Origin: Promethearchaeota archaeon
Lineage (GTDB): Archaea > Asgardarchaeota > Lokiarchaeia > Sigyniarchaeales > SOKP01
Length of the DNA stretch: 45,162 nt
Assembly: GCA_019894975.1 (NCBI GenBank)
Contig: JAGXNO010000032.1
Coordinates: 1-45,162, forward strand
Reading direction: 5' to 3'
Each line of letters starts with the position of its first letter. Position 1 is the stretch's first letter. The notes beneath the pieces were generated by a model. The model saw only the letters and a program-made list of their open reading frames with translations. It ran no database searches and was not told the origin of the DNA. The position numbers and the translations under genes were made by a program. This document shows positions 15,901-31,765 of this stretch, piece by piece.

Positions 15901-17037
15901 ATGTGTGCTGATAAAAGACAAGGTCCATTAAAAGAATGCGTGGAATTTATAGAAAAGCACAAACTGGAATATCTCAAAGAAGATAAACCTTATTCTTCAG
16001 ATCCAGAAGAAGAAACATTTGAAATTCAAGAAGATAAAATATTTGAAATCCCTAAATGCGATGACTTACATGTCAAGAATATTGGTTTTGTTGATGGGGG
16101 AAATGGACCCATTCTGAGAAGTGCAGATTTCAATATAAGCCTGAATCGTGTAGCAGGAGCATTATTCTCATCAAACCAATGGACTGAGCCTATTGATACA
16201 CCTGTCAAAATTGAGTTTTACAGCGCAACAGTTTTAGATCTTCTTGATGATGATTCATTAGCATATATTACTCGCTTTTTTCCAACAGAATCTCGATTCT
16301 CAGAGTATCTCCCTCATAATGAATTGAATTTTCCAATAAATGATCCCACTATTAGAGAAAAGGGATATCGATTACCGAATATTGACGTTTTTGGGGGAAT
16401 AGCTATGAGATTTGCTGAATGGACATATGCTAATAAATTTATTTCTACAGAATTGGATGAAGGAAGCATTTTTGTAAGAGATGGTTCACTCCAAACAGGA
16501 TATACTGGAGAGACTGAAATTGCTGAAAATCTATATAAAACTGCGATTAAAAAGGATGTTATAGTTACAGGACTCTCAAAAACATGTCGTTTAATAACAA
16601 AAACCGGTAATTCATTAAATTCACTCATTCATTATACCTCTAATAAAAAATTTCCAAATAATGCTTGGTATTACCATCCTATATATAGAATCACAAAAGC
16701 TCAAGAACAAGCTGATTTATATTTTGTAAAATTACAGAAGAATTCAAATTATTCTTTTCGATTTGATATATTATTAGATCAAGCAAAAAAAATTTCTAAA
16801 GACGAATGTGAAAAAATCATATCGAATATAGCTAATAATTCTAATGATCTTTCATATCCGGGATATCCTTATGGACTTATCAAGGTAGACCAACTTGCTG
16901 CTATTAGTGTTAAGGAACTTGAACCCCAGAAGATCCAATTAATAGCTGAATTTAATCAAGAGGATTATAATGAATTTATTTTACCGCGTCTTCGATCAGT
17001 AAATGCACATGATTTATTAAACGTAATAAGAAGATAA
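15901..17037 (+). CDS. nurA: DNA double-strand-break repair nuclease NurA
   Basis: GFVDGG, RFAEW, VRDGSL, GLSKT, GYPYGLIKVDQLA; directly upstream of herA-mre11-rad50. Confidence 0.88.
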   Translation: MCADKRQGPLKECVEFIEKHKLEYLKEDKPYSSDPEEETFEIQEDKIFEIPKCDDLHVKNIGFVDGGNGPILRSADFNISLNRVAGALFSSNQWTEPIDTPVKIEFYSATVLDLLDDDSLAYITRFFPTESRFSEYLPHNELNFPINDPTIREKGYRLPNIDVFGGIAMRFAEWTYANKFISTELDEGSIFVRDGSLQTGYTGETEIAENLYKTAIKKDVIVTGLSKTCRLITKTGNSLNSLIHYTSNKKFPNNAWYYHPIYRITKAQEQADLYFVKLQKNSNYSFRFDILLDQAKKISKDECEKIISNIANNSNDLSYPGYPYGLIKVDQLAAISVKELEPQKIQLIAEFNQEDYNEFILPRLRSVNAHDLLNVIRR

Positions 17038-17041
17038 TTTA

Positions 17042-18634
17042 ATGTTAATGGTGAAAAAATTGAGTGAATTAGGAAAAAAAATTGGTAGTTTTGTAACAGG
17101 CACATCTTTAGTAAAATTAATATTAAGACAGAAATCGGATCAAGAATTTGAATTAGGACAGCTTTTTATTGCTGGAAAAGATAATAAAAATTACAGCATT
17201 TATCAAATTAAAGACCTTTTCTTTGGAAGTCAAATTCCCGATAACGTACTCGAATTAATGGCAGGTTATGGACTAGAACGAGATAACAGTGACTTGAAAG
17301 TCTATGAACCAGAATTAAGAAATTATGTAATGGCCCTAGCAAGACCATTAATATATGTCAAAGAAAATGAATTATTCCTTCCTAAACGATTACCTAGTTT
17401 TTTTTCAGATATTTTCGATATTGACGACAATCATTTGGAATTTTTTAGGGAGAAAATAATCGAAAATCCTATAACCCTTGGAAAGATTCGTTCTGGATCT
17501 AAAGTTTTAAATACAGAAGTAAAACTGGAAGCAGATAAAGTATTAAGTCATCATGTTCTAATTCCCGCAACAACGGGAAGAGGAAAATCAAATTTAGTTA
17601 AGACAATCCTGTTTAATTTAATGGAAAATGATGAGTGTGGTAAGCTAGTATTTGATCCTCATAATGAATATTATGGGACTATTAGTCAGAAAGGGCTTAA
17701 AGATCATCCAAAGAGCATGGAGAATTTAAAATATTTTACAATAAGAGATATCCCTGGAAAATTAGATCTTAAATTCAACATAAAAAGTTTATATCCATCA
17801 CATGTAGTAGGAACTCTGAGTTTTAGTCCCCCTCAAAAAGATGCTTTATATACTTATTACAAGAAGTATAGAAGAGATTGGATAGAAAAACTATTTGATG
17901 AATTAACAAAAACCCCAGAGGGTATTCAAGATGTAACTATTTCGGTAATAAGAAGAAGATTAGCACTTTTATTAGATGTTGAGACAAATGAAGTAGGACA
18001 GATAATCAAGGAAAGAGGCATATTTACACTTAGTAGTCATGAGACTACAATTGACTCTATTATAAAATTCTTAATGGAAGGAAAAACAGTAATTATTGAT
18101 ACTTCATTATTTAGTAGCTCTGAAGAAATCTTTATGGCAACCATTATAGTTGATGGATTATTTAAAAAATATAAGAATTTAAAATATGAAGATAAATTAA
18201 TCGATAAACCAGTTATAACAATAGTTCTAGAGGAAGCTCCAAGAGTTATTGGTCAAAAAGTATTAGAAGCAGGGGAAAATGTTTTTGGAAAAATAGCACG
18301 TGAAGGAAGGAAATTTAAAATCGGATTAATCGCATTAACTCAATTGCCAAGTTTAATCCCACGAGAAATTCTAGCAAATATGAATACAAAAATTATCCTA
18401 GGGAATGAAATGGGCCCTGAAAGAGATATTCTAATAAAAAGTTCTGCCCAAGATCTTTCGGATGATAGTCAAGCAATAGCAAGTTTAGATATTGGTGAAG
18501 CTATTATTACATCGAATTTTACGAAGTTTGCAATCCCTATTAAGATTCCTTTATTTGATGATCTATTAACAGGCATAAAAAATGATCCGAAATCAGATAA
18601 AAAGATAAGAAAAGCATTTCCCGGTATAAATTAA
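17042..18634 (+). CDS. herA: HerA helicase/translocase ATPase
   Basis: N-terminal HAS-barrel-like region, HVLIPATTGRGKS (Walker A), VFDPHNEY, IVLEEAP (Walker B), IAREGRKF, TQLPS, LDIGEAII. Confidence 0.92.
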   Translation: MLMVKKLSELGKKIGSFVTGTSLVKLILRQKSDQEFELGQLFIAGKDNKNYSIYQIKDLFFGSQIPDNVLELMAGYGLERDNSDLKVYEPELRNYVMALARPLIYVKENELFLPKRLPSFFSDIFDIDDNHLEFFREKIIENPITLGKIRSGSKVLNTEVKLEADKVLSHHVLIPATTGRGKSNLVKTILFNLMENDECGKLVFDPHNEYYGTISQKGLKDHPKSMENLKYFTIRDIPGKLDLKFNIKSLYPSHVVGTLSFSPPQKDALYTYYKKYRRDWIEKLFDELTKTPEGIQDVTISVIRRRLALLLDVETNEVGQIIKERGIFTLSSHETTIDSIIKFLMEGKTVIIDTSLFSSSEEIFMATIIVDGLFKKYKNLKYEDKLIDKPVITIVLEEAPRVIGQKVLEAGENVFGKIAREGRKFKIGLIALTQLPSLIPREILANMNTKIILGNEMGPERDILIKSSAQDLSDDSQAIASLDIGEAIITSNFTKFAIPIKIPLFDDLLTGIKNDPKSDKKIRKAFPGIN

Positions 18635-18656
18635 TAAAAATTAATAAGGTTTGGAT

Positions 18657-19955
18657 ATGAAAATCAAATTTGCACATATTTCTGATGTTCATTTAGGTGC
18701 ATGGCGTAGTGAACGAATGAACAAATTAGGATATAAAGCATTCGAAGAAGTGGTCAATAACGTCATTAAGGAAAATGTAGATTTTGTTATTATTAGTGGA
18801 GATTTATACGATGTAAGCAATCCAAATGTAGAAGTTATAGATTTAGCTACAAGGGAATTGAAAAAATTAAAAGATCTTGAAATCCCCGTATATGGGATAA
18901 TGGGTTCACATGATTTTTCTCCGTCAAACAAATCAATGGTCAGACCTTTGATTACAGCAGGTTTATTTATAGATGTTTGGGATCCAGAGCTCGATGATGA
19001 TAATAAAATAAGATTAAATTTTCTTATAGATCCAAAAACGAACATCAAATTAACAGGTTTAAGGGCTAGAAAACGTAGTTTAGAGATAGAAGAATATCAA
19101 GAATTAGATAGACAAACTCTTGAGGCCGAAAAAGGACCTAAAATCTTCATTCTCCACACAATGTTAAGTGAATTAAAACCTAAAGAATTTAAAGACATGG
19201 AATCCGCTCCAAAATCCTTACTACCTCAAAATTTTGATTATTATGCAGGAGGTCATCTCCATAAACTACTTCCGGAAAAACTGAAGGTAGATGGAGTGAC
19301 ATTACAAGTCAACGAGAAAAATAACATAATATATCCTGGCTGCGTCTTCCCTACAGATTTCAGAGAGTTAGAAAGAGTTAAACATGGGGGATTTTGCTTG
19401 GTATCAGGTGAAATAAGAGGGGAAAAACTGGTTTTAAAAGTAAAATTCAACCCTGTTAAAGTAATCGATATAAGAAATATCGTTTTGAATTGTAACGATA
19501 AATCCGTTTCTGAAGTTTTAGATCAATTGAGACATGAGTTATCAAATCGAGATTGTCAAGATAAAATTGTAACAGTCAGATTATTTGGGATCCTATCTTC
19601 GGGTAAGACATATGATATAAAATCCAACGAACTTATTCAAAAGCTTAAAGAGAATGGTGCTTATGAGGTGTTTATTAATAAAAATGCTCTTACTACAGTG
19701 GAATATCAAGCAATAAGTGTATCAACTGGAGAAAGTAATGAAGAAATTGAGGCAACCCTAATAAAAGAGCATGCTAGCCAAGTAAAAATTAAGAATTTTC
19801 CAACTGATAAGATTGAAAAGAAGATTCATCAACTTCTCGTTTCCCTTGGATCAGAAAGGCAAATTGGAACAAAAGTAATGGATTACAATGATTCTTTGAA
19901 ACAAACATTTTTAAGCATTTTTGAAATCCATAAGACTAAGGAGCGGAAACAATGA
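18657..19955 (+). CDS. mre11: Mre11 nuclease
   Basis: HISDVHLG, SGDLYD, GSHD, ILH, YYAGGHLH, YPG. Stop overlaps the rad50 start (ATGA). Confidence 0.93.
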   Translation: MKIKFAHISDVHLGAWRSERMNKLGYKAFEEVVNNVIKENVDFVIISGDLYDVSNPNVEVIDLATRELKKLKDLEIPVYGIMGSHDFSPSNKSMVRPLITAGLFIDVWDPELDDDNKIRLNFLIDPKTNIKLTGLRARKRSLEIEEYQELDRQTLEAEKGPKIFILHTMLSELKPKEFKDMESAPKSLLPQNFDYYAGGHLHKLLPEKLKVDGVTLQVNEKNNIIYPGCVFPTDFRELERVKHGGFCLVSGEIRGEKLVLKVKFNPVKVIDIRNIVLNCNDKSVSEVLDQLRHELSNRDCQDKIVTVRLFGILSSGKTYDIKSNELIQKLKENGAYEVFINKNALTTVEYQAISVSTGESNEEIEATLIKEHASQVKIKNFPTDKIEKKIHQLLVSLGSERQIGTKVMDYNDSLKQTFLSIFEIHKTKERKQ

Positions 19956-22039
19956 TCCTAGAGTCAATTGAAATATCAAATATTAGAAGTATTAGGAATG
20001 AAGAAATAAAATTTCCTTCATCAACAATGTTGTTCTTTGGAGATGTAGGTAGTGGTAAGTCCTCAGTCTTGAAATCAATAGAATTTGCATTATTTGGGAC
20101 TTTAACTCACGCTGATTTAAGCGGAGATTCTCTTTTAAGAAGGGGAAAAGGCACTGCTTCAGTTAATTTAACATTTTTAATTGATGGTAAGAAATATTCA
20201 ATTAAGCGCAGTTTATCAAAAGATAGAAAGGGAAATGTTTCCCAAAAAGAATGTGTTTTTATTGATCATGATAATGGAACAAGTATTACTTATGCCCCTA
20301 CAGATATGCGCAGAAAAATATTGTCTCTGCTCTCATATTCTGTCCCTCGATATGAAAAAGCAACTAAGCTTCCCTTATTCAGATATACTGTATACACACC
20401 TCAAGAACAGATAAAAGAAATCATTCAAGCAGAACCAGATGATCGATTTGAGATTCTAAAAGAAGTTTTTGGGATTGAAAAATATGAAATTACGTTGAGA
20501 AATATAGATTTCATCAAAGATTTCCTAAATGATAGAGTAAAGGAATATAAGATCAGAATTGAGCAGATTGGTGATCCTGAGGAAAAAATTCTTCAGCAGA
20601 AGAAAGAAATAGTGCAAACAAAACAGAAAATTAGTAAAATTGAAAATGAAATTAGTACAAAAGAAAAGGATATAACTTCTCAAGAATTAGTTGTTGAAGA
20701 ATTTCAAAAAGATTTGGATAATTTTTTAAAAAAATTTGCACAAATTGAAAATAAGGAGTCCAATATCCTTGAATATAGAGCTAAACAAAAGAAAATTAAA
20801 ACTGCACTAAATAAAATTCAAAAAGAAATAGTTGAAAAAGAAGGAGAGTTAAAGGAATTAAAGGATATAATAATACCTACAAAACTTAGCGAAGCTCAAT
20901 TAGAATCTCAATTGGAACAATTACAAAATTTGAAGTCTCAAAAAGAAAAAGAGAGTGCTGTTGTAAAAAAAGTATTAGCAGACGTAGATAAATTATTGAA
21001 GGAAGGGAAATGTGCTTTATGTGGTCAAGCGATTCATGAGAAAGATAGATTTGAAAAGGAATTTCAAGAAGCAAAAATAAAAATAGGAAATCTTACAAAT
21101 GAAATCGATAATCTACTGTTAAAAGTGAATGAACAAAAGAAACTGCTTAAAATCAAACGTGAATCCCAGAAAGTTAAAAATAAAAAAGATTCGTTAAATA
21201 ATCTAATTTCAGAAAAGCAGAAAAGACTAACAGATTTGAATTCTCGAATAAATGAACTGTTTGTTAATATCAATAATAATCAAGAAGATATACTTACTAT
21301 CTTATCAAAATATAAAAATACCAACTTACTCAAATTTAAAGGCATGGGAGAAGAGATAAAAGTTAAACTTAAAACAGAAAAAAAAGCTCTAAATGAACTG
21401 AGCTTGGGAAAAGAATCATCTGGAAAAGAGTTAAGTGCCCAAAACAAAACTCTTGAATATTTACAGAAGGAACTAGCAGAAATAAATTCGAATATAGAAC
21501 TAAAAAAGGAAATACAAGGTGATTTAACCCATTACTCCCAACTTAAAAATTGGGTTGGCGAGGGATTCCCTGTGTTAATCAGAGATATCGAAAAAAGAAT
21601 ACTTTCCTCAAGTGCGCATCAATTTAATTCCTACTTTAAAGAATGGTTTCATGAATTAGTAGAAGATAGAAATATTGAAGTTGAGATTAAAACTGATGAT
21701 TTCCAACCTATCATTCATGTTAACGGTTATGAATCACCATTCAAAGACTTATCTGGGGGAGAAAAAAGCGCTCTTTCTTTAGCTTATAGATTAGCTTTAA
21801 ACAAAATTATTAATGAGAGATATCAAGAAGTAAAAACAAAAGGTCTTCTGATTTTAGATGAACCAACAGATGGTTTCAGCCAGCAACAAATTAATCGAAT
21901 GCAGCCTATATTTGAAAAATTAAATACTTCTCAAATGATAATTATATCTCATGAAAGAAATCTTGATTCGTTCGTAACTGACATATTTCATTTTCAGAAA
22001 GAAAATCACATTACCAAGGTTAAAAAAGAAACTAGCTAG
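19952..22039 (+). CDS. rad50: Rad50 ATPase (short coiled coil)
   Basis: NIRS, GDVGSGKSS, Q-loop YTPQEQI, coiled coil with Zn hook CALCGQ, LSGGE, LILDEPT, IIISH. Confidence 0.94.
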   Translation: MILESIEISNIRSIRNEEIKFPSSTMLFFGDVGSGKSSVLKSIEFALFGTLTHADLSGDSLLRRGKGTASVNLTFLIDGKKYSIKRSLSKDRKGNVSQKECVFIDHDNGTSITYAPTDMRRKILSLLSYSVPRYEKATKLPLFRYTVYTPQEQIKEIIQAEPDDRFEILKEVFGIEKYEITLRNIDFIKDFLNDRVKEYKIRIEQIGDPEEKILQQKKEIVQTKQKISKIENEISTKEKDITSQELVVEEFQKDLDNFLKKFAQIENKESNILEYRAKQKKIKTALNKIQKEIVEKEGELKELKDIIIPTKLSEAQLESQLEQLQNLKSQKEKESAVVKKVLADVDKLLKEGKCALCGQAIHEKDRFEKEFQEAKIKIGNLTNEIDNLLLKVNEQKKLLKIKRESQKVKNKKDSLNNLISEKQKRLTDLNSRINELFVNINNNQEDILTILSKYKNTNLLKFKGMGEEIKVKLKTEKKALNELSLGKESSGKELSAQNKTLEYLQKELAEINSNIELKKEIQGDLTHYSQLKNWVGEGFPVLIRDIEKRILSSSAHQFNSYFKEWFHELVEDRNIEVEIKTDDFQPIIHVNGYESPFKDLSGGEKSALSLAYRLALNKIINERYQEVKTKGLLILDEPTDGFSQQQINRMQPIFEKLNTSQMIIISHERNLDSFVTDIFHFQKENHITKVKKETS

Positions 22040-26648: not shown

Positions 26649-26942
26649 TTATACAAGCCCTACAAATATTTTAAACGCGGCCGTTTCGTCTCCTTCGTCA
26701 ATTGAATGAATCATGAAGCTAATATCATGTTTATCCCTTATGTGCAGTGCTGTTTGAGAAGAAACAAACTTCATTCTTGTAGAAGTATTATCTCCTTGCC
26801 AAACCCAGACATTTCTCTCATGAACATCGACAAATAGTAGGATTTTATTCGAATCCAATAACTCGAATAAAGGGACATTTTCTACTAATACTGTTTCTTC
26901 AAAATCTCCTAATTCTTTATTAAATTGATAAGTAATGATCAA
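26649..26942 (-). CDS. Single-domain gelsolin-like protein (Asgard actin-regulator type)
   Basis: LLDSNKILLFVD...VWVWQG..TSTRMKF..SQTA..IRD...IHSIDEGDETAAFK matches the gelsolin repeat consensus L.S...filD....vW.G......ek.......i......EG.E...F. Confidence 0.8.
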   Translation of the reverse strand: MIITYQFNKELGDFEETVLVENVPLFELLDSNKILLFVDVHERNVWVWQGDNTSTRMKFVSSQTALHIRDKHDISFMIHSIDEGDETAAFKIFVGLV

Positions 26943-27853: not shown

Positions 27854-28675
27854 TTATTCTACTAGTTTTAGTTCATTAATTAAATACTCCCCGACTACAT
27901 CTACTCCCATTTTGTGTACATAATTGTTAATATTTTGTTGTAAAAATTTAATGATTTTTTCAGAAACTTTATCACAAACTGACTTACATTCTAAGAATTC
28001 ATTATGTAAAATCAACTCACAAGAAGCATTTACTTTAGTACATAATTTTTTTAATTGTAAAGAGATACCCTCTGCAGGAAGAGTAGTAAAGTTATCCCAA
28101 CTATCCCTAAAACCAGAGATTTGACTCGGAGATGTATTTTCCAACAATTCTTTTAAACTACCGTCTGATAAACTCCTATTAACCCGATCGGTTATATGGT
28201 TTAATTCTTTTTTGGCTTCCAGTTGGCAAAGAAAGACATAATATTTTAATAATTCTTCAGCTTCTTTAGTTTTCTTGGAATCAACAATTGTCCATCCATT
28301 CGTCTTTTTACAACTTAACTCTTTCTTTTCAGGATTCGAAAAATTAGTGGGGTAAATCCAACATTGCGGTGGTTTAATTCCTGAATTATGGACAAGGCAA
28401 CCATTTATCTTCTCATCATATAAAAAACATTTTCCTTTCTTTTCATCAAACCTTAACTTAAAACTAAAAACATCGCTTCTGATAAAATCACTCTTAATAG
28501 CATAACCCCGTTTAATATATTCTTTTACTAAGATTTTGGGGATATCAATCTTAATTGAACAACAATCACCCTTACATATATCTAAACAATTTGGACCAGT
28601 AATTGCCTCCTTCATTAAAATATTGAATTTTTTAACTATTTCCCAAAATTTGTCGTCGACCACAGTATTACTCAA
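27854..28675 (-). CDS. YkgJ-like (CxxCxxCC) cysteine-cluster Zn/Fe-S protein
   Basis: CLDICKGDCC, KCFLYD...GCLVH..KPPQCWIYP, plus further C-terminal Cys. Confidence 0.75.
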   Translation of the reverse strand: MSNTVVDDKFWEIVKKFNILMKEAITGPNCLDICKGDCCSIKIDIPKILVKEYIKRGYAIKSDFIRSDVFSFKLRFDEKKGKCFLYDEKINGCLVHNSGIKPPQCWIYPTNFSNPEKKELSCKKTNGWTIVDSKKTKEAEELLKYYVFLCQLEAKKELNHITDRVNRSLSDGSLKELLENTSPSQISGFRDSWDNFTTLPAEGISLQLKKLCTKVNASCELILHNEFLECKSVCDKVSEKIIKFLQQNINNYVHKMGVDVVGEYLINELKLVE

Positions 28676-28848: not shown

Positions 28849-30960
28849 ATGTCCGAAAACCTAGTAATTATAGATATAACTGATTTCGAATTTATAACTC
28901 TCGATGGCTCACAAAACCTTAAAGATATATCCGGAAACGGAACGCTGGTTGTGAAGAATCCAACACAAAGAAGTAGATTATGGAATCTTATATGTAATGT
29001 TAAGGAAAATGTAAACACTTCTATAGAAGCGAAAGAACTTACAGTAGGAACATTAAATCCTGCTCAAGACTTCACAAAAGAATATGAAATCAAGGATCTT
29101 AAAAGATCATCCTTAAAAGTCGAAGAGATTTTTGATACTGATAAATCTGATTCAGGTAAAGTAAATAATGCATTTCTTTATAAAACTGATAACAAATGTA
29201 GTTTGAAACTTACATTAACTAATCCTTTGAATTTACCCGTCTTAGAGATAAAAGTTAAAAGGGACATGCCCGAATTTATTCAAGAAATTGAAATGAGAGA
29301 TCCAAGTAGTGGGGAAGCTAGCTTAAAAGAAGAAGAAGGAAAGCGAATTCTTTACTGGGAGTTAACCTCTTTGGATGCAGAAAACAAGGCAGAACTTGAA
29401 ATTTTCTTTACAGCTAATATTAAAGAATTATCTTCTCAAGAGATTGGTAAGTTAACTGTAAATTATCTTATAAATAATTATAAATTAACAATGATGAATC
29501 CTGAAGTCAGAGGACTAACAGATTCAATGAGTGGAATCGATAGAGACGAAGGGACTCAACCTGGAGCATGGGATTGTAATGTGGAATTTATTAATGAATC
29601 TGGATTCCAAGTTAAACTTGAAGATGTGAAAGTATCGCAAACAATTACGACAGGAGTAGAAACAGTGGTTTCTCAAACTCCAGATAGAGTCTTAAATCCA
29701 GATGAGTCATGGGATTTCGATTTTCAAGTTGAGGCTAAAGATGTACCAGAACTTAGCTCTGAAATTGGATCTACTCCTTTATTTGTGGTGATTCCAAGAG
29801 TGGTCGGTGAAATCGTAAAAGAATCTACTATTTACGATGTATTAAGTGCTACAATTGATAAAAATATTAATCCTCCTGAGGTAGATGCTTATGCTAATAC
29901 TGATATGTCAATTACAAATACGATTGTAAACGATGGATCTTCTGCAGTTGATAAGTTTTTCTTATCAGACGAAACTCCTCCTGATTTTATTCCTCCTTCT
30001 GTAAAAGATATAAAAATTCTTTTAGGGGATATAGATATAAGTTCACGAGAGGAATTTGTACAAAAAATTTTGATAGATCCTAGCGATCAGGATTTTTCTC
30101 ATAAGCATCAAATATATGTAGAATTGCATAATCTTGCAAATGAATTTCTTCCGGGAAAACAAATGGTGATATCATATCCACTTCTAGCAAGAAATCCTAG
30201 ACCCCCTACTGAAACAAAGTACATGACTCCAGTGAAAATTGATATTAACAGTCCAGTAGAAGGTAAATCTTATATTAGAAGCCCTGATGAAGAGCCAGAG
30301 CTTAAAGTAAGATATGTAAAGCGTAAGTTAAAAACTCTTAAAAGTATCAAACCAGGACTTAGTGAAGGAGAGTTTAGTATTGGTGTAAGAGTTCAAAATA
30401 AAGGAGATGTAGAATTGGAAAACGTGTTAGTCAAAGACATTATTCCTACTGGTTTTAATCTCACAGAATTTACACCCCCTGTTGATGCCACCCATGAAGT
30501 AGTACAAGTAGGAGATTTATCTGAATTACATGTAAAAGTTCCTGAGATAAAAGGAGGTTCATCAGTAAGTATTAATTACAACTGCTCTGGCTCAGGTGAT
30601 TATCCTCGATCTGAGCCTGTGATAATCGTTTTAGGTAGAGGTGGAGGTGAAACAACTGGATCTTCTGAAACACCTCAAGCAATGGCCGAATCTCAAAAAG
30701 CTCATGTAGTTGACTCTCAAGCGGGTAAAATACATGATACGTTTATTGAAATATATAAAGCTGTTGATCGAGCACCCACTGGTGAAGTTTTAGGTGATAT
30801 CTTAGAAAAACGAAGAGACGAGTTTCCACCCGGGCCTATACTTCACCAGTTATTAGCATTTGCTAAAGAAATGAGAGCTCTTGGGGATAAGATTATTGTA
30901 GGTTCTTTGAGAGACGAAGTAATGATAAAATTACAGAGTTTTAAAAGTAAATATGCCTAA
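28849..30960 (+). CDS. 703-aa cytosolic multi-beta-sandwich protein: N-terminal mu-homology (adaptin mu/delta-COP)-like region, DUF11-like Ig domains, helical C-terminus
   Basis: No signal peptide or TM. ENLVIIDITD.EFITLDG.QNLKDISGNGTLVV and EIKVKRDMP...GEASL...RILYWELTSLDAENKAELEIF...LTVNYLI resemble MHD strands. VRVQNKGDVELENVLVKDIIPTGF is DUF11-like. The CDS is certain; the MHD call is inferred. Confidence 0.55.
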   Translation: MSENLVIIDITDFEFITLDGSQNLKDISGNGTLVVKNPTQRSRLWNLICNVKENVNTSIEAKELTVGTLNPAQDFTKEYEIKDLKRSSLKVEEIFDTDKSDSGKVNNAFLYKTDNKCSLKLTLTNPLNLPVLEIKVKRDMPEFIQEIEMRDPSSGEASLKEEEGKRILYWELTSLDAENKAELEIFFTANIKELSSQEIGKLTVNYLINNYKLTMMNPEVRGLTDSMSGIDRDEGTQPGAWDCNVEFINESGFQVKLEDVKVSQTITTGVETVVSQTPDRVLNPDESWDFDFQVEAKDVPELSSEIGSTPLFVVIPRVVGEIVKESTIYDVLSATIDKNINPPEVDAYANTDMSITNTIVNDGSSAVDKFFLSDETPPDFIPPSVKDIKILLGDIDISSREEFVQKILIDPSDQDFSHKHQIYVELHNLANEFLPGKQMVISYPLLARNPRPPTETKYMTPVKIDINSPVEGKSYIRSPDEEPELKVRYVKRKLKTLKSIKPGLSEGEFSIGVRVQNKGDVELENVLVKDIIPTGFNLTEFTPPVDATHEVVQVGDLSELHVKVPEIKGGSSVSINYNCSGSGDYPRSEPVIIVLGRGGGETTGSSETPQAMAESQKAHVVDSQAGKIHDTFIEIYKAVDRAPTGEVLGDILEKRRDEFPPGPILHQLLAFAKEMRALGDKIIVGSLRDEVMIKLQSFKSKYA

Positions 30961-31123: not shown

Positions 31124-31765
31124 ATGATAATTGAATTAACACTTAGCCTATTTTTTACATTCATTTCAAGTCTTATTATATACTGGGTAATACATTTAAA
31201 AGTGGAGGATAAGAACAAAAAAGTAGTTAAAATCTTTTATAACTTTCATTCTGTAATCTGGGCTTTCACTTTAATAACAATTCCTATTATAAATTCAAGT
31301 TTTTTAAGATTTTTTCTTCCCGAAAATATTAGTTATTTCAAGGATTATTGGATATTGTTTGCTCTCTTGGGTATTGTATTCATCATATTAGGTATTAACT
31401 TTGCTAGAAGAGCTAGTAAACTAAAAAAAAATAAGCTTAAAAATGAAAATAATTCCAACTTGATAACATCTGGAGTTTTTAGAATTATTAGACATCCAAA
31501 TTACTCTGCATGGATAATAATATTTTTTGGAATAGCTTTAATATCTGATTCACTTGTTTCTTTAATTTTCTGTCCTATTGTTTTATTACTATTGGAGATT
31601 CATGCTTCAATTGAAGAAAAACTAGTTTTAAAACCAAGATATGGCAATAATTATGATATTTTCAAGGAAAAATCACCTTCTCGCATTATTCCCACACCTT
31701 TGAACCTTTTACTAGTAATAATTGCGATGATAATAGTATATGTTGGATTTCTAAACATCTCTTAA
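31124..31765 (+). CDS. ICMT/PEMT-family integral membrane methyltransferase
   Basis: Multiple TMs, LITSGVFRIIRHPNY, EEK.L...YG..Y. Confidence 0.85.
   Translation: MIIELTLSLFFTFISSLIIYWVIHLKVEDKNKKVVKIFYNFHSVIWAFTLITIPIINSSFLRFFLPENISYFKDYWILFALLGIVFIILGINFARRASKLKKNKLKNENNSNLITSGVFRIIRHPNYSAWIIIFFGIALISDSLVSLIFCPIVLLLLEIHASIEEKLVLKPRYGNNYDIFKEKSPSRIIPTPLNLLLVIIAMIIVYVGFLNIS

What the first reader, a model, noticed from the sequence alone, without database searches (positions are those of the whole stretch)
28849..30960. Large cytosolic protein with an adaptin-mu/delta-COP-like mu-homology domain plus extra Ig-like sandwiches
Seen: no signal peptide or TM despite Ig/DUF11-like domains that are usually extracellular. 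Inference from remembered consensus: residues 1-37 recall the first MHD strands (NEvfiDv.E.v...G.....i.G.i), and residues ~115-220 (RILYWELTSLDAENKAELEIF) recall the delta-COP/mu segment (l.W.l..id..n....leF). Three or so further beta-sandwiches and a helical tail follow. It could be an archaeal cargo-adaptor/coat-related protein, 2 kb from a gelsolin gene. Adaptor-related domains have been reported in Asgards, so the novelty would lie in this architecture.
Basis: inference. Interest (0 to 1): 0.75.

Follow-up and report, generated by a model that had tools for sequence, protein, structure and literature searches.

The report
Asgard protein with mu-homology domain
This 703-residue cytosolic protein of a Loki-type Asgard archaeon really does start with the cargo-binding 'mu-homology' fold of eukaryotic vesicle-coat adaptors; the family was already listed in a 2023 catalogue, but here it turns out to be present in nearly every Asgard genome and to be built from ordinary prokaryotic DUF11 sandwiches.

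Summary

After the MHD come two DUF11-type sandwiches, a disordered linker and a four-helix bundle. The best structural match of the bundle is the Vps28 C-terminal domain, but that match is weak and sequence does not confirm it.

However, direct orthologues are already listed as Adap_comp_sub candidates in Eme et al. 2023, and this scan flagged the same family in at least 8 other genomes.

New here:
- The family profile finds it in 276 of 301 genomes of the phylum. Pfam's model finds it in 55, and in 13 above threshold, so the published "patchy" distribution is a detection artefact.
- MHD subdomain B is homologous to the protein's own DUF11 domains (hhalign 95%).
- The helical tail is confined to the window's order.
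- A paralogue is paired with a BBS7-like beta-propeller.

Function is inferred, not shown: a cytosolic interaction adaptor.

The parts
28849..30960 (+). Whole gene, 703 aa plus stop; cytosolic multidomain protein
   Evidence: ORF; full-length orthologues; no TM or signal peptide; AF2 model with pLDDT 89.1
28849..29157 (+). MHD subdomain A, first part (residues 1-103, six strands)
   Evidence: Secondary structure. VIA alignments to mu2, mu3A, mu4, delta-COP, SGIP1 and Syp1 start at model residue 1-4.
29158..29496 (+). MHD subdomain B (residues 104-216), a DUF11-type sandwich inserted into subdomain A; carries the invariant W170
   Evidence: Scanned alone it hits Adap_comp_sub at E 7.2e-5. Of 18 orthologues, 16 hit Adap_comp_sub and 17 hit DUF11. 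hhalign against the C-terminal DUF11 domain gives prob 94.7%, E 6.4e-8. W170 is invariant and aligns with the Trp of AP-3 mu.
29497..29826 (+). MHD subdomain A, second part (residues 217-326); holds the most conserved motif of the family (PGxWDCxxEFxNxS, residues 238-252)
   Evidence: VIA alignments run to model residue 325-328 and to the last residue of the solved MHDs. Conservation scan. Weak DUF11-like signature: hhalign E 1.2e-3, prob 19%.
29836..30315 (+). Third sandwich (residues 330-489): a DUF11-related domain with an insertion; its fold resembles pilin, cohesin and alpha2-macroglobulin receptor-binding domains
30316..30639 (+). DUF11 Ig-like domain (residues 490-597)
30640..30708 (+). 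Disordered Gly/Ser/Thr-rich linker (residues 598-620)
   Evidence: pLDDT below 50 over 598-620; lowest conservation in the protein
30709..30957 (+). C-terminal four-helix bundle (residues 621-703), found only in the window's order; fold resembles the Vps28 C-terminal domain

Best explanation
The gene encodes a soluble cytosolic scaffold.

Shown:
- The first 326 residues fold as a mu-homology domain. This is the two-subdomain beta module that AP mu subunits, delta-COP and muniscins use to bind short peptide motifs of cargo and accessory proteins.
- The MHD is followed by two DUF11-type Ig sandwiches, a flexible linker and a small four-helix bundle.
- The MHD fold, the domain order, the absence of export signals and the near-universal presence of the family in Asgard genomes are all direct results.
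- Three of the sandwiches (MHD subdomain B, the third sandwich and the DUF11 domain) are homologous to one another.

Inferred:
- The protein works as a protein-protein interaction adaptor. The MHD and the Ig sandwiches would bind short linear motifs or partner proteins, possibly the cytosolic tails of membrane proteins.
- In the window's order, the tethered helical bundle docks the whole assembly onto another machine.
- The most specific candidate for that machine is ESCRT-II or ESCRT-III, because the bundle's best structural match is the Vps28 C-terminal domain. I put that last step at only about 25%.

The protein is not a mu or delta subunit of an AP or COPI-like tetramer: it has no longin domain.
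For: - Sequence: subdomain B alone hits Adap_comp_sub at E 7.2e-5, and 16 of 18 orthologues do the same. The relative P0160 exceeds Pfam's cut-off (34.4 bits against 31.6). The family profile against PDB sequences returns AP-3, AP-1 and AP-2 mu, delta-COP and the gamma ear. The invariant W170 aligns with the mu Trp.
- Cytosolic location: no signal peptide or TM.
- Conservation: 276 of 301 genomes of the phylum, 79 of 90 high-quality genomes, with almost fixed length.
- Tail: Vps28-CTD is the top hit in both structure searches. BLASTP of the tail against the Vps28-C region of a UFL1-PCI-Vps28C fusion protein of the same genome gives E 0.013.
- Literature: orthologues are listed as Adap_comp_sub ESP candidates (PMC10307638 supplement). 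Asgard proteins with Vps28-C plus adaptin-like Ig domains have been proposed as ESCRT-0 analogues (PMC10936438).
- Paralogue: it sits next to a BBS7-like beta-propeller in 15 of 15 genomes where both genes are on one contig.
Against: - Identity to solved MHDs is only 8-13%.
- The full-length protein gives no Adap_comp_sub hit. Its own genome gives none at E 1e-3. The domain-only score of 22.7 bits is below Pfam's cut-off.
- I had no coordinates or residue-level superposition, so I could not examine the strand-by-strand topology or the motif-binding pockets.
- No trafficking genes flank the gene. Its conserved neighbours are housekeeping genes: a nurA-herA-mre11-rad50 operon, an MBL-fold hydrolase and tRNA-modification genes.
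- No experimental data exist for any member.
Confidence: 0.6

Rival explanations
1. It is a general cytosolic Ig-array scaffold with no role in membrane traffic, for example an accessory of genome maintenance or of a housekeeping hydrolase. On this view the MHD fold is simply one way of packing DUF11 sandwiches.
For: Synteny is conserved across at least four families of the phylum. An MBL-fold (Lactamase_B_3) gene lies directly upstream on the same strand. A divergent nurA-herA-mre11-rad50 operon is adjacent, and the same operon lies 7 kb upstream in the window. No trafficking gene is nearby.
Against: The neighbours are housekeeping genes whose order is probably conserved by descent rather than by function. 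In the window's own family the immediate neighbours are different. The MHD fold is otherwise known only from trafficking adaptors. The paralogue is paired with a BBS7-like propeller and lies near an Arf-family GTPase.
Confidence: 0.2
2. The resemblance to the eukaryotic MHD is not specific homology. A nested pair of DUF11-type sandwiches arrived at a similar arrangement independently, or shares only the general Ig-like ancestry.
For: Identity is 8-13%. Pfam scores are mostly below threshold. Subdomain B matches DUF11 as often (17 of 18) as it matches Adap_comp_sub (16 of 18). It is clearly homologous to the protein's own DUF11 domains.
Against: The match covers both subdomains and 85-90% of every solved MHD in a single superposition, and all known MHD types rank first. 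Some relatives exceed Pfam's curated cut-off: 34.4 to 40.9 bits. Profile hits in the PDB are almost exclusively mu subunits. The family occurs in the closest prokaryotic relatives of eukaryotes.
Confidence: 0.12
3. It is an exported cell-surface or adhesin-like DUF11 protein that leaves the cell by a non-classical route.
For: DUF11, pilin-like and cohesin-like sandwiches are typical of surface proteins. NCBI and JGI name relatives 'DUF11 domain-containing' or 'TIGR01451 repeat protein'.
Against: No signal peptide, TM segment or anchor is present, and the acidic N-terminus is conserved. One or a few copies per genome, nearly fixed length and 55-94% identity within the order are unlike fast-evolving surface proteins. 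The C-terminal helical bundle is a cytosolic type of module.
Confidence: 0.05

Closest known systems
C-terminal mu-homology domain of AP-1 to AP-4 mu subunits and of delta-COP (Pfam PF00928, Adap_comp_sub)
   Different: No N-terminal longin domain, so it is not a medium subunit of a tetramer. The module is about 326 aa rather than about 270. It is followed by two more sandwiches and a helical bundle. The sequence score is below Pfam's cut-off for this protein. Motif-binding pockets were not examined.
Muniscin, SGIP1 and Syp1 mu-homology domains (PF10291) and stonins
   Different: In those proteins the MHD is C-terminal, after an F-BAR domain or disordered regions. Here it is N-terminal and is followed by Ig domains.
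Asgard 'Adap_comp_sub' eukaryotic-signature-protein candidates of Eme et al. 2023 (Nature 618:992, Supplementary Table of ESP candidates)
   Same: This is the same family. Lokiarchaeales entries in that table share the N-terminus, the GLTDSMSG motif and the EFINES motif with this protein, and a Jordarchaeia entry is visibly homologous.
   Different: The paper reports only Pfam-domain presence and calls it 'sparsely distributed'. It gives no fold, architecture, tail or paralogue context. Here the family is found in 276 of 301 genomes.
Asgard multidomain proteins with a Vps28 C-terminal domain plus adaptin-like Ig domains (Liu et al. 2021 bioRxiv 10.1101/2020.10.19.343400; Makarova et al. 2024 mBio, PMC10936438)
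   Same: Ig-like adaptin-type domains joined to a small helical bundle whose best structural match is Vps28-C. Those authors propose such proteins as ESCRT-0-like adaptors.
   Different: Here the Vps28-C assignment rests on fold alone and fails sequence tests. I could not establish whether those papers drew this exact architecture, because figures are not held.
Prokaryotic DUF11 / TIGR01451 repeat proteins (PF01345)
   Same: The C-terminal Ig domain passes the DUF11 cut-off. The third sandwich and MHD subdomain B are homologous to it.
   Different: Typical DUF11 proteins are secreted repeat arrays. This one is cytosolic, and its first two sandwiches are nested into an MHD.

Membership tests
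Mu-homology domain superfamily (Adap_comp_sub PF00928 / muHD PF10291) | Elongated all-beta module of two sandwich subdomains, with subdomain B inserted into the chain of subdomain A | tested here: met
Mu-homology domain superfamily (Adap_comp_sub PF00928 / muHD PF10291) | Sequence score at or above Pfam's gathering threshold (31.6 bits) | tested here: not met
   The full-length protein gives no hit even at E 10. Residues 104-216 alone give 22.7 bits, E 7.2e-5. The window's genome gives no hit at E 1e-3. Relatives do pass: P0160 at 34.4 bits, and 13 of 301 genomes are over the cut-off.
Mu-homology domain superfamily (Adap_comp_sub PF00928 / muHD PF10291) | Conserved Trp in the subdomain B strand (the W-x-I/V motif of mu subunits) | tested here: met
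   W170 is invariant in 54 diverse family members. It is aligned with the Trp of AP-3 mu1 in the HMMER alignment.
Mu-homology domain superfamily (Adap_comp_sub PF00928 / muHD PF10291) | Peptide-motif binding pocket (YxxPhi in mu1-4, WxW in delta-COP, DPF/WxxF in muniscins) | not testable with these tools
   No model coordinates and no residue-level structural alignment were available.
Medium subunit of AP/COPI-type heterotetramers (mu-adaptin, delta-COP) | N-terminal longin domain (Clat_adaptor_s, PF01217) fused to the MHD | tested here: not met
   The MHD starts at residue 1-4, and there is no longin hit. The N-terminal extensions of paralogues show no longin match either.
Medium subunit of AP/COPI-type heterotetramers (mu-adaptin, delta-COP) | Assembly with two large adaptin-type subunits and a sigma/zeta subunit | not tested
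   No such genes are in the neighbourhood. No complex prediction was available.
Vps28 C-terminal domain (C-terminal half of PF03997) | Compact four-helix bundle of about 90 residues | tested here: met
Vps28 C-terminal domain (C-terminal half of PF03997) | Detectable sequence relationship to Vps28-C | tested here: inconclusive
   There is no Pfam VPS28 hit on the tail or on 29 tail-bearing relatives. The PF03997 genome scan of 41 genomes never lands on this gene. hhalign of the tail against Asgard Vps28-C gives prob 2.6%, E 0.017. BLASTP against the Vps28-C region of a same-genome fusion protein gives E 0.013.
DUF11 (PF01345) | Score above Pfam's gathering threshold | tested here: met
   28.4 bits against 24.6, residues 509-558. 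25 of 29 relatives also match.
Asgard Adap_comp_sub ESP candidates (Eme et al. 2023) | Orthology to the listed sequences | tested here: met
   Motif look-up in the paper's supplementary table returns Lokiarchaeales entries with the same N-terminus and motifs over at least 400 residues.

The most novel reading that the evidence does not exclude
This family is the vertically inherited Asgard forerunner of the eukaryotic mu-homology domain. It is preserved in a state where its assembly from nested DUF11-type sandwiches can still be read. In Lokiarchaeales it acts as an ESCRT-0-like cargo adaptor: the MHD and Ig domains hold cargo tails, and the Vps28-C-like bundle docks on ESCRT-II. A paralogue works with a BBS7-like beta-propeller as a primitive coat module.
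Probability: 0.2. Interest if true: 0.8.

Novelty: new variant of a known kind. Interest (0 to 1): 0.5.

Why it matters
Whether Asgard archaea have cargo-sorting machinery is central to models of how the eukaryotic endomembrane system arose. Adaptor-complex domains in Asgards are currently described as sparse and patchy (PMC10307638; PMC12962969). A 2025 preprint on a Heimdallarchaeion with internal vesicles notes that the relevant homologues may be too divergent to detect (10.1101/2025.11.06.686947).

This work makes four points:
- One MHD protein is close to a core Asgard gene that Pfam misses in four out of five genomes.
- It supplies a profile that finds the family.
- It links the MHD to the common prokaryotic DUF11 sandwich.
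- It names concrete partners to test: ESCRT-II or ESCRT-III for the tail, and a BBS7-like propeller and an Arf-family GTPase for the paralogue.

The existence of the family is not new, and no function has been shown, so the advance is incremental.

Tried and rejected
- **Longin hypothesis.** Many relatives carry 125-175 extra N-terminal residues, which could have been the mu-type longin domain. The alignment shows a short conserved hairpin and helix plus an acidic linker. By eye, some carry HEAT/PBS-like repeats. Pfam finds no longin. Rejected on present evidence, but these extensions were not folded.
- **Tail as Vps28-C by sequence.** Pfam, a profile against PDB sequences, hhalign and a PF03997 genome scan all failed or were marginal. 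I keep it only as a structural lead.
- **Tail as a free-standing or otherwise fused domain.** A search of shorter proteins found only contig-end fragments of the same family.
- **Gene-neighbourhood inference for the window gene.** Conserved neighbours are housekeeping genes. No trafficking link was found.
- **Relatives outside Asgards.**
  - The Atlas lists Thermoplasmatota DUF11 clusters as look-alikes, which is a lead only.
  - The MHD-only profile search listed only Asgard-labelled proteins among its best 120.
  - Cluster look-up named one distant relative, a Borrarchaeum NACHT fusion.
  - No non-Asgard phylum was searched, so restriction to Asgards is not shown.
- **Tool availability.** Context was taken from the genome search and the fetch from genomes instead.
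- **Smaller MHD-only profile against PDB sequences.** It gave only non-significant hits, E 0.1-0.6, though still mostly adaptors.
Full report
**The gene.** The window has about 31% G+C. It holds one uninterrupted ORF at 28849-30960 on the + strand, 703 aa. A word-indexed search of 5.8 billion proteins returned 262 relatives. The best 120 are nearly all 701-704 aa, 55-94% identical, and come from MAGs labelled Promethearchaeota, Lokiarchaeia and related Asgard names. This confirms the start codon and shows strong purifying selection. The protein has no hydrophobic N-terminus and no segment above a 19-residue Kyte-Doolittle mean of 1.27, so it is cytosolic by default. On the full-length protein Pfam sees only one DUF11 domain, at 509-558.

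**Fold.** I aligned 54 diverse relatives, drawn. With that alignment AlphaFold2 gives a confident model: mean pLDDT 89.1, pTM 0.66. It is all-beta from residue 6 to 594, disordered from 598 to 620, and has four helices from 622 to 702.

VIA-align compared the whole model with 48,161 PDB representatives. All eight best matches are mu-homology domains:

|---|---|---|
| AP-2 mu2 (9fiw_M) | 15.9 | rmsd 3.3 A, 224 of 252 residues, model 2-326, chain 169-435 |
| AP-3 mu3A | 15.8 | |
| AP-4 mu4 | 15.8 | |
| mu2-FCHO2 chimera | 15.6 | |
| AP-2 core mu2 (2xa7_M) | 15.3 | |
| bovine delta-COP | 14.9 | |
| AP-1 mu1 | 14.8 | |
| SGIP1 | 14.4 | |

Each alignment leaves at most about 30-40 target residues unmatched and runs from the first to the last residue of the solved domain. 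All three chain segments of an MHD must therefore be matched in one rigid superposition: the first part of subdomain A, the inserted subdomain B, and the return to A. Other hits to this region are single-sandwich matches of about 130 residues, or multi-domain adhesins at rmsd 5-20 A.

Foldseek on the whole model is dominated by generic multi-Ig proteins. It also lists many mu2 and mu3 chains with target TM-scores of 0.5-0.64. One caveat: I saw alignment summaries, not coordinates.

**Sequence evidence for the MHD.**
- Some orthologues carry precomputed PF00928 hits. Rescanned, they give E 6e-7 to 6e-6 at 26-29 bits, below the 31.6-bit cut-off, over residues about 94-215.
- A more distant relative, P0160, passes the cut-off at 34.4 bits.
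- The 54-sequence profile searched against all PDB sequences returns 33 hits. All but three are adaptor proteins: AP-3 mu (E 3.4e-4), AP-1 mu, AP-2 mu and delta-COP for positions 107-217, and the gamma-adaptin ear (E 1e-3) for the DUF11 domain.
- In that alignment the family's invariant W170 pairs with the conserved Trp of mu3A.
- Cut out on its own, residues 104-216 of the window protein hit Adap_comp_sub at E 7.2e-5. Of 18 orthologues from across the phylum, 16 do so.

**The protein is an array of DUF11-type sandwiches.** The same excised subdomain B hits DUF11 in 17 of 18 orthologues. Profile-profile comparison gave these results:

| Comparison | hhalign probability | E-value |
|---|---|---|
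| Subdomain B vs C-terminal DUF11 domain | 94.7% | 6.4e-8 |
| Third sandwich (330-489) vs DUF11 domain | 95.3% | 2.3e-8 |
| Second part of subdomain A vs DUF11 domain | 19% | 1.2e-3 |
| Second part of subdomain A vs subdomain B | 0.5% | 0.11 |

So at least three of the sandwiches are paralogous, and one of them is the inserted subdomain of the MHD. This suggests that the MHD arose by nesting common prokaryotic DUF11 sandwiches. That is an inference. I found no paper that makes this link, but the search covers only open-access text.

**Distribution.** The family profile hits 276 of 301 sampled genomes of the window's phylum at E 1e-5 or better. That is 79 of 90 high-quality genomes and 65 of 70 genera. 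By my count, about 250 have a best E below 1e-50, and the roughly 150 matches listed all cover nearly the whole 590-position profile. It was not found in three small-genome families (0 of 4, 0 of 3, 0 of 1).

On the same sample Pfam's PF00928 model hits 55 genomes at E 1e-3 and only 13 above its cut-off. All those hits lie in ORFs of about 350-780 aa, mostly about 583-778, and those whose coordinates I compared (for example G213, G192 and G096) fall inside this family's matches. The window's own genome is not hit.

The literature calls Asgard adaptor domains sparsely or patchily distributed (supplement of PMC10307638; PMC12962969). For the MHD this is largely a sensitivity artefact.

ORFs are about 690-740 aa in the window's order and about 583-668 aa elsewhere. 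The helical tail is therefore an order-level addition.

Sequence tests do not confirm it:
- No Pfam VPS28 hit.
- A PF03997 scan of 41 genomes of the order finds the canonical Vps28 and an approximately 790-aa UFL1-PCI-Vps28C fusion, but never this gene.
- hhalign against 13 Asgard Vps28-C sequences gives probability 2.6%.
- BLASTP against the Vps28-C region of the same-genome fusion gives E 0.013, with 32% identity over 78 columns.

Liu et al. 2021 and Makarova et al. 2024 describe Asgard proteins that join Vps28-C to adaptin-like Ig domains and propose them as ESCRT-0 analogues. This protein may belong to that class. I rate that at about 25-30%.

**Context.** In the window the neighbours are:
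- a divergent CxxCxxCC-domain gene at 27854-28675;
- a 122-aa ORF;
- a 97-aa gelsolin-like ORF;
- a UvrD helicase;
- downstream, an ICMT/PEMT-family methyltransferase and a 3-hydroxyacyl-CoA dehydrogenase.

I compared 18 orthologous loci from other genomes. In the window's family the CxxCxxCC gene and the 122-aa gene recur. In four other families, including the Thorarchaeota-labelled one, an MBL-fold gene lies directly upstream on the same strand, flanked by a divergent nurA-herA-mre11-rad50 operon and by tRNA-modification and helicase genes. The same repair operon lies at 15901-22039 in the window. This is ancient conserved gene order among housekeeping genes. It argues for vertical inheritance and says little about function.

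**Paralogue.** The genome has a second family member on another contig. It is 714 aa, has an N-terminal extension and lacks the tail. About 150 bp downstream of it, on the same strand, lies a 549-aa beta-propeller whose best Pfam match is the BBS7 propeller (E 5e-16). An Arf-family GTPase lies 4 kb away. The paralogue and the propeller are adjacent and co-oriented in all 15 genomes, from two genera, where both were found on one contig. Across those genomes the proteins are 64-73% and 48-67% identical. This is the only trafficking-flavoured context found for the family.

**Prior knowledge.** Eme et al. 2023 list 44 Adap_comp_sub candidates. Entries from Lokiarchaeales share the N-terminus and internal motifs of this protein. 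First readers of this scan flagged the same 703-aa protein in at least eight other genomes. The central claim is therefore correct but not new.

The additions here are the fold-level confirmation, the near-universal distribution, the DUF11 link, the order-specific tail and the paralogue-propeller pair.

**Verdict.** This is an MHD-fold protein (about 90% sure). It probably acts as a cytosolic interaction adaptor (about 60%). A link to ESCRT through the tail is possible (about 25%). It is not a mu or delta subunit. Interest is moderate.

Noticed in passing
L065:9046-11190 (-) and L065:7248-8897 (-) (own genome, contig C97): A 714-aa paralogue of the MHD family is followed about 150 bp downstream, on the same strand, by a 549-aa beta-propeller whose best Pfam hit is the BBS7 propeller (E 5e-16; also BBS2_Mid, FG-GAP, Itfg2). 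The pair is adjacent and co-oriented in 15 of 15 genomes of two genera where both genes lie on one contig. An Arf-family GTPase (377 aa) lies at L065:14989-16122.
   Followed up: partly
L035:561-2933 (+) (own genome, contig C66): A 790-aa fusion protein with zinc fingers, DDRGK, E3_UFM1_ligase, four PCI stretches and a C-terminal Vps28-C domain (Pfam E 8.5e-5). Orthologues of about 790-830 aa recur across the order. It matches the UFL1/Vps28 fusion mentioned by Liu et al. 2021.
   Followed up: partly
window 26649-26942 (-): A 97-aa ORF with a weak Gelsolin-repeat hit (E 0.035, profile positions 12-75 of 76). It is probably a single-domain Asgard gelsolin. The same ORF recurs at the same place in a same-genus genome (L026).
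   Followed up: partly
window 31124-31765 (+): Directly downstream and co-oriented is a 213-aa membrane methyltransferase of the ICMT/PEMT family. It is conserved next to the gene in 3 loci of the window's family. In eukaryotes ICMT processes prenylated small GTPases; no link was tested here.
   Followed up: no
L019:8211-8915 (+) and equivalents in L016, L017, L020-L023, L027, L028, L030, L031: Outside the window's order, an MBL-fold (Lactamase_B_3) gene of about 230 aa lies immediately upstream of the MHD gene on the same strand in 11 of 19 loci from four families. Next to it is a divergent nurA-herA-mre11-rad50 operon.
   Followed up: partly
P0248 / P0280 (Candidatus Borrarchaeum sp., 1322 aa); P0136 (797 aa): Distant family members are fused to other modules. 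One carries a C-terminal NACHT NTPase and a second Adap_comp_sub-like stretch. Another has a family-2 glycosyltransferase in front of the C-terminal half of the protein, tail included.
   Followed up: no
Alignment A2: P0201, P0224, P0227, P0262, P0263: By eye only, the N-terminal extensions of some paralogues look like HEAT/PBS-lyase-type repeats placed in front of the MHD. This is reminiscent of adaptin solenoids. It was not tested with any profile or fold.
   Followed up: no
G069:C105:179288-181051, G052:C88:3902-5620, G067:C8:59364-61109: Three orthologues in other genomes carry a single in-frame stop (TAG or TAA) inside the match. This could be sequencing error, a pseudogene or recoding; not examined.
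   Followed up: no
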